In this document: positions 35,978 through 39,853 of the stretch, one piece after another
How positions within the stretch are numbered: position 1 is the first letter of the stretch
Layout of the letters: the number at the start of each line of letters is the position of its first letter
Made by a program: the position numbers and the translations under genes
The notes under the pieces: generated by a model
What the model saw: the letters and a program-made list of their open reading frames with translations, nothing else
What the model was told of the DNA's origin: nothing
Database searches by the model: none
NCBI GenBank assembly: GCA_963664405.1
Contig: OY761158.1
Coordinates: forward strand, 3,328,001 to 3,392,000
Source: Thermoanaerobaculia bacterium
GTDB taxonomy: Bacteria > Acidobacteriota > Thermoanaerobaculia > Multivoradales > Multivoraceae
DNA: 64,000 nt
Direction of reading: 5' to 3'

Positions 35978-37201
35978 ATGGACAGCGGACTCGACCTCTC
36001 ACCCCTACCCTTGAATCAGCGACGGTCGTCCGTTCTCGATGTGCTGTTGGTCTTCGCCGGAGCCAACATCGTCACCACGACATTGGTCACCGGTGGCTCG
36101 ATCGGAACCTCGTTCTCGCTCGCGGACGGTGCCGCCGTTGTCTTCATCGGCACTCTCGTTGGCACCGGTATTCTCGCGCTCCTATCTCGCCTCGGGCCTC
36201 GTTTCGCCGTACCGAGCATGGTGCTGCTGCGCCAGCCCTTCGGCGATCGTGGTTCCCAGGCAATCTCGCTGCTGCTGGTGCTGACGAACTTCGCCTGGAT
36301 CGCGCTGAATAACGTAATCGCCGGCAAGGCCCTCGCCAATCTGGCCGGCGGTGAGGAGTGGCTTTGGTCTGTCGCCGTCGGCGCGGCCGCGGTTGCTCTT
36401 ACTCTCTACGGTCCTCGGGCAATGGCCCTCTTCAACCGATTCGCGGTGCCTCTACTCGTGGTGGTCGGCGTCGCACTCACCGTGGCGCTGTCTACGGCCG
36501 AGAATCGAGCTCGTCTGGCGCTGCCGGGTACGGGATCGCTGAGCTGGCTCGGCGGCCTCGACCTGGTCATCGGCTACCAGGTGAGCTGGAGTCTCATGTT
36601 CGCGGACTACACCCGCTTTCAGCGTCGCGAGAGCCGCGCTGCATTGGCCGTCTTTCTGGGCATGACCCTCAGTAGCATGTGGTTGATGACCCTCGGCGCC
36701 GCCGCCGGCAAAATCGGTGGCGCCAACGACCCCACCGCGATGATCCTGGGTGTCGGACTGCCGATCGCGGCCCTCCTGTTGATGGCGCTCTCAACGATCA
36801 CGACCAACTTCGTGAATCTCTATCTGTCCTCGTTGGCGGTCCGCAATCTGTGGAGCGCGGCGCCGGCGGCGCGTACGGTTCTGACCCTTGGCGCCATTGG
36901 GACCGCACTCGGACTCGCCTCACCGAACCTGCTCGACAGCTACGCCGGATTCATGGGCTGGATCGGATCGAGCTTCCTGCCGATCGTTGCCATCGTCATC
37001 GTGCATTTCTTCTCGCTCCACCGAGAACCGGACCTACCCGCCACTCGCACAGGGTCGATCGCCGCGATGGCGGCGTGGGCAGCGGGCGTCGCCACCTATC
37101 TGCTAGCTCTGCACGTCTACTCGAACTGGGGTGCGACGCTGCCGACCCTGTTGGTCTCAGGCCTCTGCTACCGGATACTCTGCCGCCCTTCGAGAGACTG
37201 A
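35978..37201 (+). CDS. NCS1/cytosine permease family transporter (CytX-like)
   Basis: ~12 TM helices; SWSLMFADYTRF, STITTNFVNLY. Confidence 0.8.
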   Translation: MDSGLDLSPLPLNQRRSSVLDVLLVFAGANIVTTTLVTGGSIGTSFSLADGAAVVFIGTLVGTGILALLSRLGPRFAVPSMVLLRQPFGDRGSQAISLLLVLTNFAWIALNNVIAGKALANLAGGEEWLWSVAVGAAAVALTLYGPRAMALFNRFAVPLLVVVGVALTVALSTAENRARLALPGTGSLSWLGGLDLVIGYQVSWSLMFADYTRFQRRESRAALAVFLGMTLSSMWLMTLGAAAGKIGGANDPTAMILGVGLPIAALLLMALSTITTNFVNLYLSSLAVRNLWSAAPAARTVLTLGAIGTALGLASPNLLDSYAGFMGWIGSSFLPIVAIVIVHFFSLHREPDLPATRTGSIAAMAAWAAGVATYLLALHVYSNWGATLPTLLVSGLCYRILCRPSRD

Positions 37202-37206
37202 CACCT

Positions 37207-37441
37207 GCGCCGTCCTCGGCGCCACGTCCTTTGGCCGAAGGAAGGCGAGCTGTCTCCAATAGCTCAAACTCGTGACCCATGAGTCAAGTCTTCCCTGGTG
37301 CGAGCTCGTGCCGGTGAGGTGGGGTGCCCTGGACGCCCGGCCGCTAGGAGTCTGTCCGAGTATTCGGACAGGCGAGTAGTTCTCAGGCGGGGATGGGCCG
37401 GAGAACGGGCCGAAGGCGCGTTCTCCGGGGCTAGGAGCGTG
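37207..37441. repeat. Cluster of REP-like modules flanking the IS1111 insertion
   Basis: GCGCCGTCCTCGGCGCC, CGGTGAGGTGGGGTGCCCTGG, CTAGGAGTCTGTCCGAGTATTCG, GCCGGAGAACG..CGTTCTCCGGGGCTA. Confidence 0.65.
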
Positions 37442-37529
37442 TATCTGGACTCCAATGTCAACAGGGGTGGGTCGGTCTTCTTGTTCTTCGATAGAGGTTT
37501 CCTTGGTGTGTAATCACAGGCAGTATGGA

Positions 37530-37710
37530 GGTCGATGGTGAGTCAAGACAGCAGACGTATCTCCGGCCTGTAGTGGGCGATTATTAGCGCCGGGCCATGA
37601 TGAAGAAATGCGCGTGAGGGAGCCGAATCGTCCGAAAGGGCCTCGAAGGCCAACGCTCCTATCGGCTTTTCCCCCCACGCCAGTCTGACTGGAAACCATC
37701 AGAATTCTCT
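37530..37710 (-). ncRNA. Putative bridge RNA / seekRNA of the IS1111 element
   Basis: Two internal loops carrying TAGGAGCGT + TCGGAC (match target) and TTCATCAT + AGATA (match element ends); boundaries approximate. Confidence 0.75.
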
Positions 37711-37790
37711 ACTCGCGCTGTCGGAGTGTTTGTGAGTGTTCAATTTGAAGTCTTCGGGTGCGTTGGGGTCCAGAGATCGAGGCCAAGGGC

Positions 37791-38831
37791 TCAGGCCGTG
37801 ACTTGCCGTGGAGGCTGCAGCTGGAAGGAGGTCTCGTGGGTCCAGACCGCCCAGACAACGCGTGCGAGCTTGTTGGCGAGGGCAACGGCGGCCCGGTTCC
37901 GTCCCCGCGAGCTCTCGACTCTGAGGGCCCACTGTTCGAGCCTACCGGCGGGTCCCTTTCTCCTCGCCCAGCTGAGCACCGACCTGGCGCCATGAATGAG
38001 GAGAGTTCGTAAGTACGCGTCCCCGCGTTTGCTGATCCTGCCGAGCCACCGCCGAGCGCCACTGGAGTGTTCCCTAGGAGTCAGTCCGAGATAGCTGGCG
38101 AGATGCCGGCCGCTTTTGAAGCGGCGAATGTCTCCGATCCAAGCGACCATGGCTGTGGCCGTGAGTACGCCTACGCCCTTGATCGTCAGGAGTCGCTTCA
38201 CGGCCTCGTCCTGGCGCGCGAGGGCTTGGATCTGTGCCTCGAGCTCTTGGATCTTCGTGGTCAGCTCGTCGATGTGGTCACAGATGCTTTCGAAAAAGGG
38301 TCGCAAGACGAGCGGGATCTCGGTATCCGGATCCGCGAGCCAGACGCGGACGCGCGGCAGGACCTGGGCGCGTCCCTGGGGCAGAAAGAGCCCGAGCTCT
38401 CGTAGGTGCCCGCGCAGAGCATTGATGTGGGCGGTGCGATCGTCCATGAACGACGAACGGATGCGATGGAGCGTGGTCATCGTCTGCTGCTCGAGCGATT
38501 TGACCGGCACGGGTAGGATGTCCTCGTTTCGATGCGCCTCGAGCATGCCCGTGGTATCCGTTCGATCCGATTTATTGCGCAACACATAGCGCCGGGTGAA
38601 ATGCGGTGGCAGCAGGATCACCTCGTGGCCGAGACTCTGAATACGCCGGCCCCAGTAGTGCGCCGAACCGCAGGCTTCCATGAGGACGGTCGCGGGCTTG
38701 ATCTGCGCGAAGAACCTGAGGAATTTCGCCCTGCGCACGCGCTGCCTCTCGGCGACCTTACCCGGCTCGTAAGACACCGCGATCTCGAAGACATCCTTGG
38801 CGATATCGACTGCGATACGTGTACTCTTCAT
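37791..38831 (-). CDS. IS110 DEDD transposase/recombinase
   Basis: AVDIAK, LMEACG, KSDRTD, YLGLTPREHSSG, ISKRGDAYLR, VALANKLAR. Confidence 0.95.
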   Translation of the reverse strand: MKSTRIAVDIAKDVFEIAVSYEPGKVAERQRVRRAKFLRFFAQIKPATVLMEACGSAHYWGRRIQSLGHEVILLPPHFTRRYVLRNKSDRTDTTGMLEAHRNEDILPVPVKSLEQQTMTTLHRIRSSFMDDRTAHINALRGHLRELGLFLPQGRAQVLPRVRVWLADPDTEIPLVLRPFFESICDHIDELTTKIQELEAQIQALARQDEAVKRLLTIKGVGVLTATAMVAWIGDIRRFKSGRHLASYLGLTPREHSSGARRWLGRISKRGDAYLRTLLIHGARSVLSWARRKGPAGRLEQWALRVESSRGRNRAAVALANKLARVVWAVWTHETSFQLQPPRQVTA

Positions 38832-38920
38832 CGTGGACTCCCTTTCTACGATCAACGTTTGCGACTTAGGTGACCCCTGGCACATAGATGCCGAAGTCAC
38901 CGGGGAGTCCATTTCATCAT

Positions 38921-39040
38921 CCGAGTATTCGTCCTGAGCCGTTTCCGTGAGCGAATAGGAAGCAACGCCCAAGTGCGCCGTCCTCGGCGCCGAAAGACAA
39001 CTAGGCGGAGGAAATGATAGCCATCATTTCTGGAGCCTAG
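38921..39040. repeat. Remainder of the REP-like unit interrupted by IS1111
   Basis: CCGAGTATTCG...GCGCCGTCCTCGGCGCC...CTAGGC-GAAATGAT/ATCATTTC-GCCTAG hairpin ending at the yidD stop. Confidence 0.65.
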
Positions 39041-39417
39041 GGCGGGTCCTCGGTTCCTCGGGTCGTCCAGGGGCCGCACTTGAGAAGGCGAACCATCGAG
39101 CGCGCCGTGCCTCTGGCAGCGCCGTACTTTTCGATCGATGCCGCCGCATATCGGCTGCATGTGGGAGTGAAGCGGCAGTGCACTCCCAAAACCGGCATCA
39201 CCCTCGACAGGGTTGCCTGGTAGGCGTGAATGCCGCCGAGAAAGAGGCGTCCCGTCCACTGCTGCTGTGGAGCCCGAGCGAGATCGAAGAACAGCAAGAA
39301 GGCGGCCGCGGGCGCAATCAGAAGCCTCCATCGACGAGGCCGAACCGACGCGACCGCCACAGCCCTCTCGTCCGCGCCCGCGACACGACCGGCATCCCCG
39401 GCCGTGTCGGGGCTCAT
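39037..39417 (-). CDS. yidD: Membrane protein insertion efficiency factor
   Basis: IHAYQ, CRFTPTCSRYA, RLLKCGPW, GTEDPP. Confidence 0.85.
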   Translation of the reverse strand: MSPDTAGDAGRVAGADERAVAVASVRPRRWRLLIAPAAAFLLFFDLARAPQQQWTGRLFLGGIHAYQATLSRVMPVLGVHCRFTPTCSRYAAASIEKYGAARGTARSMVRLLKCGPWTTRGTEDPP

Positions 39418-39427
39418 CCCTTGCGTT

Positions 39428-39853
39428 TCAAAAACGGTCGGCGTACTGGCTGACTCCGGGAACGAGAAAACGCCCGCCACCGACGCCTTTGACAATACAC
39501 ACCACGCGGACGACGAGAGTGGCGATCCAAACCGGAATCATCGCCAACGCTCCTAGGCAACCGAGGCCGGGGATCATCGAAATTACCGTGAAGGCAACCC
39601 ACAAGATGATCTCCGCGACCAAGAGTACGAGCCCGTGCTTGGCATGCCACTGCACCTCTTTGTCTTCCTTCTCTACCAGCAGTGGTACCAACGCCAGAAT
39701 CCACAGGTAGGACAAGACGACCATGACCGTGTTTACATTGCCCTCTCCTCCTCCGGCGGAGGCTGAGGGTGGTGGCGGCGGCCCTCCCGAGGGAGGCTGA
39801 GGTGGTTCAGGCGGACCCGGCGGCGGCGGCGGCGGGGTTTCGGGCTCACTCAT
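39428..39853 (-). CDS. DUF4870-like membrane protein
   Basis: Pro-rich N-terminus, VLSYLWIL, EVQWHAKHGL, 3 TM. Confidence 0.75.
   Translation of the reverse strand: MSEPETPPPPPPGPPEPPQPPSGGPPPPPSASAGGGEGNVNTVMVVLSYLWILALVPLLVEKEDKEVQWHAKHGLVLLVAEIILWVAFTVISMIPGLGCLGALAMIPVWIATLVVRVVCIVKGVGGGRFLVPGVSQYADRF

What the first reader, a model, noticed from the sequence alone, without database searches (positions are those of the whole stretch)
37430..38935. IS1111-type element with a readable bridge/seekRNA programmed against a chromosomal repeat
Seen: removing 37443-38920 rejoins CTAGGAGCGTG-T-CCGAGTATTCG (one shared T). The ~350-nt region downstream of the transposase, read on the minus strand, has one loop AGCCGA-TAGGAGCGT-tGGCCttcgaGGCC-ctt-TCGGAC-gaTTCGGCT whose segments match the target top strand (TAGGAGCGT; plus 37653-37661 vs 37432-37440) and bottom strand (TCGGAC; 37630-37635). 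A second loop carries TTCATCAT (37597-37604) and AGATA (37558-37562), matching the two element ends as joined in a circle. Established: IS110/IS1111 DEDD recombinases use such RNAs. Inference: a new, intact, naturally programmed ortholog with target, donor and guides all visible; the left target guide ends short of the shared base, so the register may differ from IS621.
Basis: partly seen in the sequence, partly recalled or inferred. Interest (0 to 1): 0.85.

Follow-up and report, generated by a model that had tools for sequence, protein, structure and literature searches.

The report
RNA-guided insertion sequence in a repeat
This is an intact mobile element of the known IS1111 kind that carries its own guide RNA aimed at a short repeat found about 90 times in the host chromosome, so it is a clean new example rather than a new mechanism.

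Summary
Window 37443-38920 is a 1478-bp IS1111-group element of the IS110 family, with its transposase on the minus strand. The genome holds 3 near-identical copies, all in the same site. Removing the element restores the 23-nt head of a chromosomal repeat. That genome has 64 exact copies of the 15 guide-covered bases, against 0.017 expected.

The 3' non-coding region encodes a ~185-nt RNA (37542-37726, minus). [quoted passage not shown] Its 7 helices covary.

The two target-matching segments lie in one internal loop. Across about 38 guide classes they covary with the flanks (0 of 10,000 permutations). AGAUAC covaries with the right end.

The left-end match UUCAUCAU is different. It forms a covarying helix with an upstream UGAUGG, so it is not a plain loop guide.

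The register is the same as in ISPa25, which has the same RNA. The shared base is not conserved among relatives.

Verdict: a new member of a known kind, of moderate to low interest.

The parts
37431..37442 (+). Half of the target: the first 12 nt (CTAGGAGCGTGT) of the repeat head. In element orientation this is the flank beyond the right end.
   Evidence: It is identical at all 3 copies, and the flanks diverge beyond it. The contig of the collapsed element starts at 37431.
37443..38920 (-). The insertion sequence, 1478 bp. The T at 37442 or 38920 can belong to either side.
   Evidence: The genome holds 3 copies covering 1-1478 at 100% rounded identity. They differ at 5 positions in all. Removing the element restores a canonical repeat head.
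37447..37453 (-). Right-end subterminal inverted repeat (GGAGTCC on the minus strand), followed by the terminal AGAT(A).
   Evidence: It is conserved in relatives.
37456..37461 (-). TTGACA, a candidate -35 box of a promoter formed only when the two ends are joined in a circle. It would lie 17 nt upstream of TGAAAT in the left end.
   Evidence: Read from the sequence. TTGACA or a similar hexamer stands at this place in relatives. Function is inferred.
37542..37726 (-). Bridge/seekRNA, long form of about 185 nt, with seven helices (P1-P7).
   Evidence: Covariance model R1 scores it 138.7 bits, E 1.3e-37. Across the alignment 91.7% of cells are paired, 24 of 35 pairs show double changes, and 0 of 500 shuffles reach the observed values.
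37653..37661 (-). Target guide T (UAGGAGCGU) on the 5' side of the target loop (loop 37652-37661). It is complementary to the top strand, in element orientation, at positions +2 to +10 right of the insertion point.
   Evidence: It covaries with the right-end flank: mean 7.76 of 10 against 5.22 +/- 0.18 in permutations, 0 of 10,000.
37630..37635 (-). Target guide B (UCGGAC) on the 3' side of the same loop (loop 37628-37638). It is identical to the top strand at the last 5 bases left of the insertion point plus the first base to its right, so it would pair with the bottom strand.
   Evidence: It covaries with the left flank: mean 4.0 of 6 against 1.96 +/- 0.17, 0 of 10,000.
37639..37651 (-). Hairpin P5 (GGCC-UUCGA-GGCC) that separates the two target guides.
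37597..37604 (-). UUCAUCAU, complementary to the first 8 nt of the joined left end (ATGATGAA). Bases 37598-37603 are also the 3' strand of helix P-alpha.
37696..37701 (-). UGAUGG, the 5' strand of helix P-alpha. It has the same letters as positions 1-5 of the left end (TGATG).
   Evidence: RNAalifold proposed this helix. It was not part of model R1, yet 93.6% of cells pair and one pair reads GC:54 / CG:31.
37557..37562 (-). AGAUAC, identical to the last 5 nt of the right end plus the first flank base. It is single-stranded, between helices P6 and P1.
   Evidence: Six end types among relatives each carry the matching RNA segment; 61 of 74 records match at all 6 letters.
37791..38831 (-). Transposase gene, 346 aa.
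   Evidence: Pfam PF01548 (E 5.2e-11) and PF02371 (E 2.2e-27). NCBIfam NF033542, 316.8 bits against a cut-off of 140. D9, E52, D89, D92 and the GLTP-E-SSG stretch at 249-258 are invariant in 13 relatives.
38835..38841 (-). A third GGAGTCC, overlapping the ribosome-binding site. It pairs with the left-end inverted repeat in the 5' leader.
   Evidence: Fold of 38820-38925 (minus): -37.8 kcal/mol, z -2.49, 2 of 200 shuffles fold as well.
38904..38920 (-). Left end: terminal (A)TGATGAAAT followed by the subterminal inverted repeat GGACTCC (38904-38910).
38921..38931 (+). The other half of the target (CCGAGTATTCG). The 128-bp type of repeat unit continues from here to about 39040.
37345..37430 (+). 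Neighbouring unoccupied repeat unit (87-bp type). Its head has 2 changes (CTAGGAGTCTGTCCGAG...).

Best explanation
Window 37443-38920 is an intact IS1111-group insertion sequence of the IS110 family. It encodes a DEDD/RuvC-type RNA-guided transposase. Downstream of that gene it encodes a ~185-nt bridge/seekRNA.

Shown here:

- The element sits at one precise position in the 23-nt head of a chromosomal repeat, without duplicating any target bases.
- The RNA has a conserved seven-helix structure.
- One internal loop carries a 9-nt segment complementary to the target's top strand at +2 to +10 right of the insertion point.
- The same loop carries a 6-nt segment matching the top strand from -5 to +1, so that segment would pair with the bottom strand.
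- Both segments change together with the flanks across relatives.
- AGAUAC changes together with the right end.

Inferred from the published IS1111 and IS621 systems:

1. The element excises as a circle.
2. Joining the ends puts TTGACA 17 nt upstream of TGAAAT, which makes a junction promoter.
3. The transposase mRNA and the RNA are transcribed together, and the RNA is then processed.
4. The transposase-RNA complex pairs the target loop with both strands of a repeat head and pairs the donor segments with the joined ends.
5. Strands are exchanged at GGA|CAC (element orientation).

In the integrated copy a 9-bp hairpin between the left-end repeat and the ribosome-binding site probably keeps translation low.

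The left-end match UUCAUCAU is paired with an upstream UGAUGG in the free RNA. If it acts as a donor guide, that helix has to open first.
For: Family: Pfam PF01548 and PF02371; NCBIfam 'IS110 family RNA-guided transposase', 316.8 bits against a cut-off of 140; IS621 transposase structure 8wt6 at E 1.5e-10.

Mobility and site specificity:

- There are 3 copies differing at 5 positions in all, and their transposases are identical.
- All 3 copies, and 2 full copies plus remnants of a 71%-identical relative, lie at the same junctions. That gives 6 right-end and 6 left-end junctions at this target.
- The genome holds 64 exact empty 15-mers, and 94 within 2 mismatches.

RNA: model R1 finds it in 95 matches over 100 sources, downstream of the transposase gene. 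91.7% of cells are paired against 79.8% when shuffled, 24 of 35 pairs show double changes, and 0 of 500 shuffles reach the observed values.

Guides:

- T guide against the right flank: 7.76 of 10 against 5.22 +/- 0.18.
- B guide against the left flank: 4.0 of 6 against 1.96 +/- 0.17.
- Each gave 0 of 10,000 permutations, on 38 guide classes.
- AGAUAC against the right end: six end types, each with its matching RNA segment.

A third relative in the same genome (C1:592105-592285) has a different T guide, which matches 7 nt of its own different flank.

ISPa25, a named IS1111 member, has the same RNA (112.3 bits, E 5.2e-32). Its guides fit its attC-type flanks in the same register.

Published mechanism: PMC11187229 (sections 6, 9, 10, 13 and 14 read) and PMC11208160 (section 12 and passages read).
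Against: - No RNA data exist for this organism, because no listed run is on record as RNA. Expression, RNA ends and processing are therefore unknown.
- No contig showed a circle junction. Contigs drop rare forms, so this is weak.
- The single-sequence fold is no better than shuffles (z -0.22 for 348 nt, z -1.20 for 161 nt). Support for the structure comes from comparison only.
- Alignment A3 was fitted to the model's structure, so its pair counts lean towards it. The sequences are related, so the shuffle counts are not probabilities.
- The left-end 'guide' lies in a covarying helix.
- In relatives the ends were placed by fixed distances from the inverted repeats, not by empty sites.
- The promoter scan cannot see a junction promoter, and the -10 candidate TGAAAT lacks the A at position 2.
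Confidence: 0.9

Rival explanations
1. Only the target loop is a guide, as in the seekRNA model. The transposase recognises the ends through the subterminal inverted repeats. The left-end match exists because UUCAUCA is a strand of structural helix P-alpha, and because the left-end TGATGNNAT is conserved as the -10 part of the junction promoter. The RNA would then be a seekRNA with a scaffold, not a two-handed bridge.
For: - For ISEc11 the 82-nt short seekRNA, which holds only the target matches, supported movement at 42%, against 15% for the long form (PMC11187229, section 10, read).
- Helix P-alpha pairs in 93.6% of cells and was not part of the model.
- Where helix and left-end pairing disagree, the helix is kept 31 to 10, over 235 cells from 40 distinct classes.
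- Position 2 of the segment mismatches the left end in 17 of 53 classes.
- Left-end positions 1-5 hardly vary, so their complementarity carries little information.
Against: - AGAUAC follows the right end through six end types. Protein-only recognition of the ends does not predict that.
- Positions 6 and 7 of the left-end match follow the left end: 42 of 53 and 31 of 53 exact, and 48 of 53 at position 7 if U-G is allowed.
Confidence: 0.3
2. The matches are not guides. The non-coding region merely holds a captured or chance fragment of the repeat it sits in.
For: One 9-mer match between a 350-nt region and a 23-nt target would arise by chance in a few percent of cases (my estimate, not a call).
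Against: - The two matches are on opposite strands, are separated by a conserved hairpin, and lie in one loop.
- They covary with the flanks in about 38 classes, 0 of 10,000 permutations.
- Relatives with other targets carry other segments at the same RNA positions.
Confidence: 0.02
3. The copies are fossils. The element once worked as described but no longer moves in this genome.
For: No new insertion sites or circle junctions were seen in the contigs of 4 runs. The same three flanks recur in those runs (loose ends).
Against: - The reading frame is open in all 3 copies and the proteins are identical despite 3 nucleotide differences inside the gene.
- The ends, inverted repeats and guides are intact and match the target exactly.
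- 64 exact targets remain free.
Confidence: 0.1

Closest known systems
ISPa25 / ISKpn4 / ISPst6: IS1111-family elements that insert into attC sites of integron cassettes (Siddiquee et al. 2024, PMC11187229)
   Same: - ISPa25 is the best named hit among plasmid records, at 49.7% amino-acid identity over 97% of the protein.
- It has the same RNA by covariance model (112.3 bits, E 5.2e-32).
- The inverted repeats and end types are alike.
[quoted passage not shown]
- The register is the same: the B guide ends on the first base right of the insertion point, and the T guide covers +2 to +10.
- Many metagenomic relatives found here have attC-like flanks (...TTGTTAGG).
   Different: The target is a chromosomal repeat head (CTAGGAGCGTGT|CCGAGTATTCG), not an attC site. 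The guide letters are different. Protein identity is only about 50%. Whether this element already has an ISfinder name could not be checked.
ISEc11 seekRNA (IS1111 family; experimentally reprogrammed, PMC11187229)
   Same: Both have a downstream non-coding region, a transposase of about 340 aa, subterminal inverted repeats, two short matches to opposite strands of the target with the top-strand match first, and no target duplication.
   Different: The paper says the two ISEc11 matches overlap in the target. Here they abut (-5 to +1 and +2 to +10). I made no direct sequence comparison with ISEc11.
IS621 bridge RNA (IS110 group; PMC11208160, PMC11208158; structures 8wt6-8wt9)
   Same: Both combine a DEDD/RuvC recombinase carrying the PF02371 domain with one non-coding RNA. 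In both, loop segments pair with both strands of the target, and further segments match the joined ends. Both target a repetitive extragenic element.
   Different: - Here the RNA lies downstream of the gene, not upstream.
- The order of the top- and bottom-strand matches is reversed.
- The inverted repeats are long.
- The donor-matching bases sit at a multi-branch junction, partly inside a helix, rather than in a simple internal loop.
- Only one base is shared between ends and target, not a CT dinucleotide, and among relatives even that base is not conserved.
- Protein similarity is limited to the C-terminal half (E 1.5e-10).
ISPpu9 / ISPpu10 and other IS110-family elements that insert into REP sequences (PMC12288879; Tobes and Pareja 2006, seen only in reference lists)
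   Same: Both make site-specific insertions at a fixed position in a palindrome-bearing intergenic repeat, often within arrays of such repeats. A folded 5' leader limits translation in ISPpu9. A comparable hairpin is predicted here.
   Different: ISPpu9 shares an AG dinucleotide with its target and uses its own promoter. I made no sequence comparison with it.

Membership tests
IS110 family (RNA-guided DEDD transposases) | Transposase with the DEDD_Tnp_IS110 (PF01548) and Transposase_20 (PF02371) domains | tested here: met
   PF01548 at E 5.2e-11 and PF02371 at E 2.2e-27. NCBIfam NF033542 at 316.8 bits against a cut-off of 140.
IS110 family (RNA-guided DEDD transposases) | Catalytic D-E-D-D residues and the G(L)-P----S(T)G motif | tested here: met
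   D9, E52, D89, D92 and G249-L-T-P-R-E-H-S-S-G258 are invariant in 13 aligned relatives. That these residues are the catalytic ones rests on the literature (PMC11187229, section 6).
IS110 family (RNA-guided DEDD transposases) | Site-specific insertion without a target duplication | tested here: met
   All 3 copies, and the 71% relative, sit at the same position. The rejoined flanks equal uninterrupted repeat heads.
IS1111 group | Subterminal inverted repeats of 7-17 bp | tested here: met
   GGACTCC lies 10 nt inside the left end and GGAGTCC lies 4-5 nt inside the right end. Counting the preceding T, the repeat is 8 bp.
IS1111 group | The longer non-coding region lies downstream of the transposase gene | tested here: met
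   348 nt downstream (37443-37790) against 89 nt upstream (38832-38920).
IS1111 group | Transposase of 330-350 aa, related over its full length to IS1111-type transposases | tested here: met
   It has 346 aa. It is 49.7% identical over residues 1-336 to an ISPa25-family transposase. No comparison with IS1111 itself was made.
IS1111-type seekRNA / bridge RNA | The RNA segment complementary to the target's top strand lies 5' of the segment complementary to the bottom strand, and both are unpaired | tested here: met
   The T loop is 37652-37661 and the B loop 37628-37638. They flank hairpin P5.
IS1111-type seekRNA / bridge RNA | Guide segments change together with the target among relatives (natural reprogramming) | tested here: met
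   Permutation tests on 38 classes gave 0 of 10,000 for each guide. A third relative in the same genome has another guide and another flank.
IS1111-type seekRNA / bridge RNA | The RNA is made, binds the transposase and is required for movement | not testable with these tools
   No RNA run is listed. This needs experiments.
IS621-type bridge RNA (IS110 group) | RNA encoded upstream of the gene, in the left end | tested here: not met
   The RNA lies downstream of the gene.
IS621-type bridge RNA (IS110 group) | A core dinucleotide shared by donor and target | tested here: not met
   Only one base is shared here. The corresponding base is A in 20 of 53 related classes. The ends of relatives were placed by anchors, not by empty sites.
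IS621-type bridge RNA (IS110 group) | Donor guides in a simple internal loop | tested here: not met
   The left-end match is a strand of helix P-alpha. AGAUAC is single-stranded between P6 and P1 at a multi-branch junction.
Rfam families | A match to a curated RNA family | tested here: not met
   There were 0 matches at E up to 1 in 37000-39400.

The most novel reading that the evidence does not exclude
In this clade of IS1111-type RNAs, which includes ISPa25, the segment that could pair with the left end of the element is held in a conserved helix. Its partner is an upstream strand with the same letters as that end, a 'left-end mimic'. Donor binding would then be gated by a conformational switch, or the donor's left end would be read in a way unlike IS621.

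In addition, the target base next to the insertion point seems to be read by the guide rather than needing to equal a base of the element. If so, there would be no fixed core.
Probability: 0.3. Interest if true: 0.55.

Novelty: new member of a known kind. Interest (0 to 1): 0.3.

Why it matters
The element is a clean natural example of RNA-guided recombination. Three things can be read directly from one genome: the empty targets (64 exact), the occupied sites and the guides.

The roughly 95 related RNAs collected here form a natural reprogramming series for the IS1111 branch, which has been studied less than IS621.

For people who engineer these systems, two points may be useful:

- The two registers of the top-strand guide occur about equally often.
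- The helix that masks the left-end match could bear on how donor recognition works in this branch.

For the biology of the genome it is ordinary: one more insertion sequence that lives in a harmless intergenic repeat.

Tried and rejected
- Rfam scan of 37000-39400 at E up to 1: no match.
- Single-sequence folds: no better than shuffles. I therefore relied on comparative structure.
- Scan of genome contigs with the single protein: only 6 loci. The phylum search and the metagenome scan with an alignment gave the set I used.
- Public runs: no RNA holder listed.
- Contigs of runs X1, X2, X3 and X5 laid on 37200-39200: no joint corresponding to a circle or to an empty site at this locus. Contigs drop rare forms.
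- Promoter scan of 37400-39000: 0 promoter-like sites. It cannot see a promoter that spans the joined ends.
- I considered a 2-nt core (AC in the target, AT in the joined ends). I rejected it because all 6 right-end and 6 left-end junctions read the same, whereas a mismatched core should give mixed junctions.
- I considered that the target-like stretch inside the transposase gene (38071-38095) is a functional site. I did not follow it up. The 71% relative does not have it.
- Supplementary files of the papers were not opened. [quoted passage not shown] They may already show the helix I call P-alpha. I found no mention of it in the text I read.

Rows dropped from the tests, out of the 95 rows of alignment A3:

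- 67 entered the T-guide test. The other 28 had no inverted repeat within 500 nt (1 mismatch allowed), had fewer than 16 nt of flank, or had an end type outside five types that I listed after seeing the data.
- 61 entered the B-guide test.
- 62 entered the left-end test.
- 74 entered the right-end test.
Full report
**What is there.** Window 37443-38920 (1478 bp) carries one long gene on the minus strand, 38831 down to 37791, of 346 aa. The protein has the two Pfam domains of IS110-family transposases, PF01548 (E 5.2e-11) and PF02371 (E 2.2e-27). It scores 316.8 bits against NCBIfam NF033542, 'IS110 family RNA-guided transposase', whose cut-off is 140. Its C-terminal half matches the solved IS621 transposase (8wt6, E 1.5e-10). 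In an alignment of 13 relatives D9, E52, D89, D92 and the stretch G249-LTPREHSS-G258 are invariant. The element has subterminal inverted repeats: GGACTCC lies 10 nt inside the left end and GGAGTCC lies 4-5 nt inside the right end. It has 89 nt upstream of the gene and 348 nt downstream. These are the features that set the IS1111 group apart from the IS110 group (PMC11187229, section 6; PMC11208160, section 12; both read).

**The ends and the target.** The host genome is one contig of 6.78 Mb. It holds three copies that cover the whole 1478 bp.
- The copies differ at five positions in all.
- Three of those differences lie in the gene, yet the three proteins are identical.
- All three copies have CTAGGAGCGTGT on one side and CCGAG(T/A)ATTCG on the other. 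Beyond the 12 nt on the left, the flanks are unrelated.
- Rejoining the flanks gives the 23-nt head of a chromosomal repeat that exists in two forms, units of 87 bp and of 128 bp, often in arrays.
- The 15 bases of that head covered by the two RNA segments occur 64 times exactly, 77 times with up to one mismatch and 94 times with up to two. Composition predicts 0.017.
- A second element, 71% identical in DNA and 73% in protein, sits in the same site with the same ends, in two full copies plus remnants.
- In all there are six right-end and six left-end junctions at this target, and all read alike.
- Contigs from four public runs collapse the element into a single contig spanning 37431-38931. 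Its depth is about 2.6 times that of the unique flanks.

**The RNA.** I aligned the regions downstream of the gene from 16 relatives and built a covariance model with seven helices. I then searched it against the window and 99 loci that hold relatives of the transposase, taken from genomes of the same phylum, from a genome collection and from metagenomes.
- It matched 95 times, nearly always full-length and downstream of the gene. The window's match is 37542-37726 on the minus strand, 138.7 bits.
- On the resulting alignment 91.7% of cells form pairs, against 79.8% after shuffling.
- 24 of 35 pairs show changes on both sides.
- None of 500 shuffles reached the observed values, and sliding the partners by 1-3 columns destroys the signal.
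- The alignment was fitted to this structure and the sequences are related, so these figures show consistency. They are not probabilities.
- The window's sequence alone does not fold better than shuffles.
- Rfam has no matching family.

**The target guides.**
- Its 5' side holds UAGGAGCGU (37653-37661). In element orientation this is complementary to the top strand at +2 to +10 right of the insertion point.
- Its 3' side holds UCGGAC (37630-37635). This equals the top strand from five bases left of the insertion point to the first base right of it, so it would pair with the bottom strand.
- The order, top-strand match first, is the one reported for IS1111-type seekRNAs and the reverse of the IS110 type (PMC11187229, abstract and section 9).

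I tested covariation by comparing each RNA's loop segments with its own flanks and with the flanks of other elements.
- For the 5' segment, 38 guide classes from 67 usable rows gave a mean of 7.76 matches of 10, against 5.22 +/- 0.18 in permutations. None of 10,000 permutations was as high. A stricter clustering into 16 classes gave 7.81 against 5.03 +/- 0.30.
- For the 3' segment, 38 classes from 61 rows gave 4.0 of 6, against 1.96 +/- 0.17, again with none of 10,000 as high.
- A third relative in the same genome (RNA at C1:592105-592285) has CGAAAGGCU in place of UAGGAGCGU. Its flank begins CGCCTTTCTGG, which matches 7 nt of that guide.

**The register.** In this element the 5' segment stops one base short of the insertion point. 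The first base to the right (C) is covered only by the 3' segment.
- Among the 25 of 38 class representatives with at least 8 of 10 matches, 11 use this register, 12 use one shifted by a base and 2 use another.
- The last base of the 3' segment is C, and so is the first flank base, in 53 of 71 rows.
- ISPa25 is a named IS1111 member that inserts into integron attC sites and is discussed in PMC11187229 (section 9). It is the best named hit among plasmid records, at 49.7% identity.
- ISPa25 has the same RNA (112.3 bits, E 5.2e-32). Its guides fit its flanks in the same register as here.
- Many metagenomic relatives have attC-like flanks ending in TTGTTAGG.

**The shared base.** Here one base (A in element orientation) could belong either to the end or to the target. 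In relatives, the base left of the left end is A in only 20 of 53 distinct classes. The second-last base of the 3' guide tends to follow it (examples). This suggests that no base needs to be shared. The caveat is that in relatives I placed the ends at fixed distances from the inverted repeats, not by empty sites.

**The donor segments.** AGAUAC (37557-37562) is single-stranded between helices P6 and P1. It equals the last five bases of the right end plus the first flank base.
- Among 74 rows, six RNA variants occur: AGAUAC, AUAUAC, AUACAC, AUACCC, AGACAU and AUAUAG.
- Each goes with the matching right end. 61 rows match at all six letters, and the rest differ only in the flank base. 33 of 10,000 permutations of the six classes were as high.

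RNAalifold, however, paired six of its bases with an upstream UGAUGG (37696-37701).
- This helix, which I call P-alpha, was not part of the covariance model.
- It still pairs in 93.6% of cells, has 61 cells with changes on both sides, and has one pair that reads GC in 54 sequences and CG in 31. None of 500 shuffles matched that.
- Over 235 cells from 40 distinct classes, the segment pairs with both partners in 186, with the RNA strand only in 31, with the left end only in 10, and with neither in 8.
- Left-end positions 1-5 (TGATG) hardly vary.
- Positions 6 and 7 do vary, and the RNA follows them: 42 and 31 of 53 exact, and 48 of 53 at position 7 if U-G is allowed.

My reading is that this segment has two partners. 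It is masked in the free RNA, and it may pair with the left end once the helix opens. Alternatively it is only structural. In that case the left end would be conserved for another reason, such as the -10 part of a junction promoter. Durrant et al. note that in many IS1111 RNAs the potential donor-binding bases lie in a multi-loop (PMC11208160, section 12). For ISEc11 the short RNA holding only the target matches was sufficient (PMC11187229, section 10). Both statements fit a weaker or different role for donor pairing in this branch.

**Expression.** No promoter-like site was found inside the integrated element. The 5' leader folds so that the left-end repeat GGACUCCCC pairs with GGGAGUCC at the ribosome-binding site (-37.8 kcal/mol, z -2.49). 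Joining the ends would place TTGACA (37456-37461) 17 nt upstream of TGAAAT, with a TG two bases before it. Relatives keep TTGACA or a similar hexamer at that place. A junction promoter is known for ISEc11, but I saw that citation only in reference lists. For this element it remains an inference.

**What could not be done.** No RNA data exist for this organism in the runs on offer. The contigs showed no circle junction. ISfinder could not be consulted, so the element may already have a name. Supplementary figures that show published IS1111 RNA folds were not available to me.

**Verdict.**
- The left-end match lies in a helix.
- The register is normal for the branch.
- The shared base is not a conserved core.

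The element is a new member of a known kind. What goes beyond the ordinary is the comparative set of about 95 RNAs and the masked left-end segment, which is worth a test.

Noticed in passing
window 37345-37430 and 38921-39040; genome-wide list: Two chromosomal repeat families, with units of about 87 bp and about 128 bp, share the same 23-nt head and often stand in arrays. There are about 94 heads within 2 mismatches of the 15-mer. The 87-bp type holds a 6-bp hairpin (GTCCGA-GAAT-TCGGAC) and a second, longer hairpin. No Rfam family matches them in the stretch scanned.
   Followed up: partly
window 38071-38095 (inside the transposase gene): CCTAGGAGTCAGTCCGAGATAGC resembles the target head. It shares 16 of 17 letters with the variant head at 37345-37361. 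It encodes the conserved YLGLTPRE stretch, using codons that are unusual for a genome with 63% G+C. The 71% relative does not have it. It may be chance, or it may be a site of unknown use.
   Followed up: no
genome C1:~592000-593400 (L126): This is a third relative in the same genome. It has an open transposase frame and a full RNA (141.5 bits) with a different guide and a different flank. No left-end inverted repeat was found, so the copy may be truncated.
   Followed up: partly
genome C1:6025684-6028358 (L004, L006, L131, L132): A partial copy and a full copy of the 71% relative stand in tandem, separated by one 87-bp repeat unit. Each occupies the head of a neighbouring unit.
   Followed up: partly
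window 38820-38925 (minus): In the 5' leader the left-end inverted repeat pairs with a third GGAGTCC at the ribosome-binding site (9 bp, z -2.49). Relatives also have GGAGTC just upstream of the start codon. This is probably a block on translation of read-through transcripts.
   Followed up: partly
loci L046-L125 (metagenomes): Many relatives have left flanks like ...GTCAGCTGCA and right flanks like C...TTGTTAGGC. These resemble the attC-type targets listed for ISKpn4 and ISPst6 (Table 1 of PMC13604230, passage read). This suggests that the branch is largely made up of elements that target integron cassette sites.
   Followed up: partly
L018, L019, L025 (three genomes of one family): These look like single-copy elements that share part of their left flank, possibly one old insertion inherited vertically. 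Their left end (CTGATGTAAT) departs from their own RNA segment at two positions, and their 3' target guides differ from one another.
   Followed up: no
window 39547-39555 (minus): This is a third exact TAGGAGCGT in the window. It is not followed by the rest of the repeat head, since the 15-mer search allowing 2 mismatches does not find it. It is probably chance.
   Followed up: no
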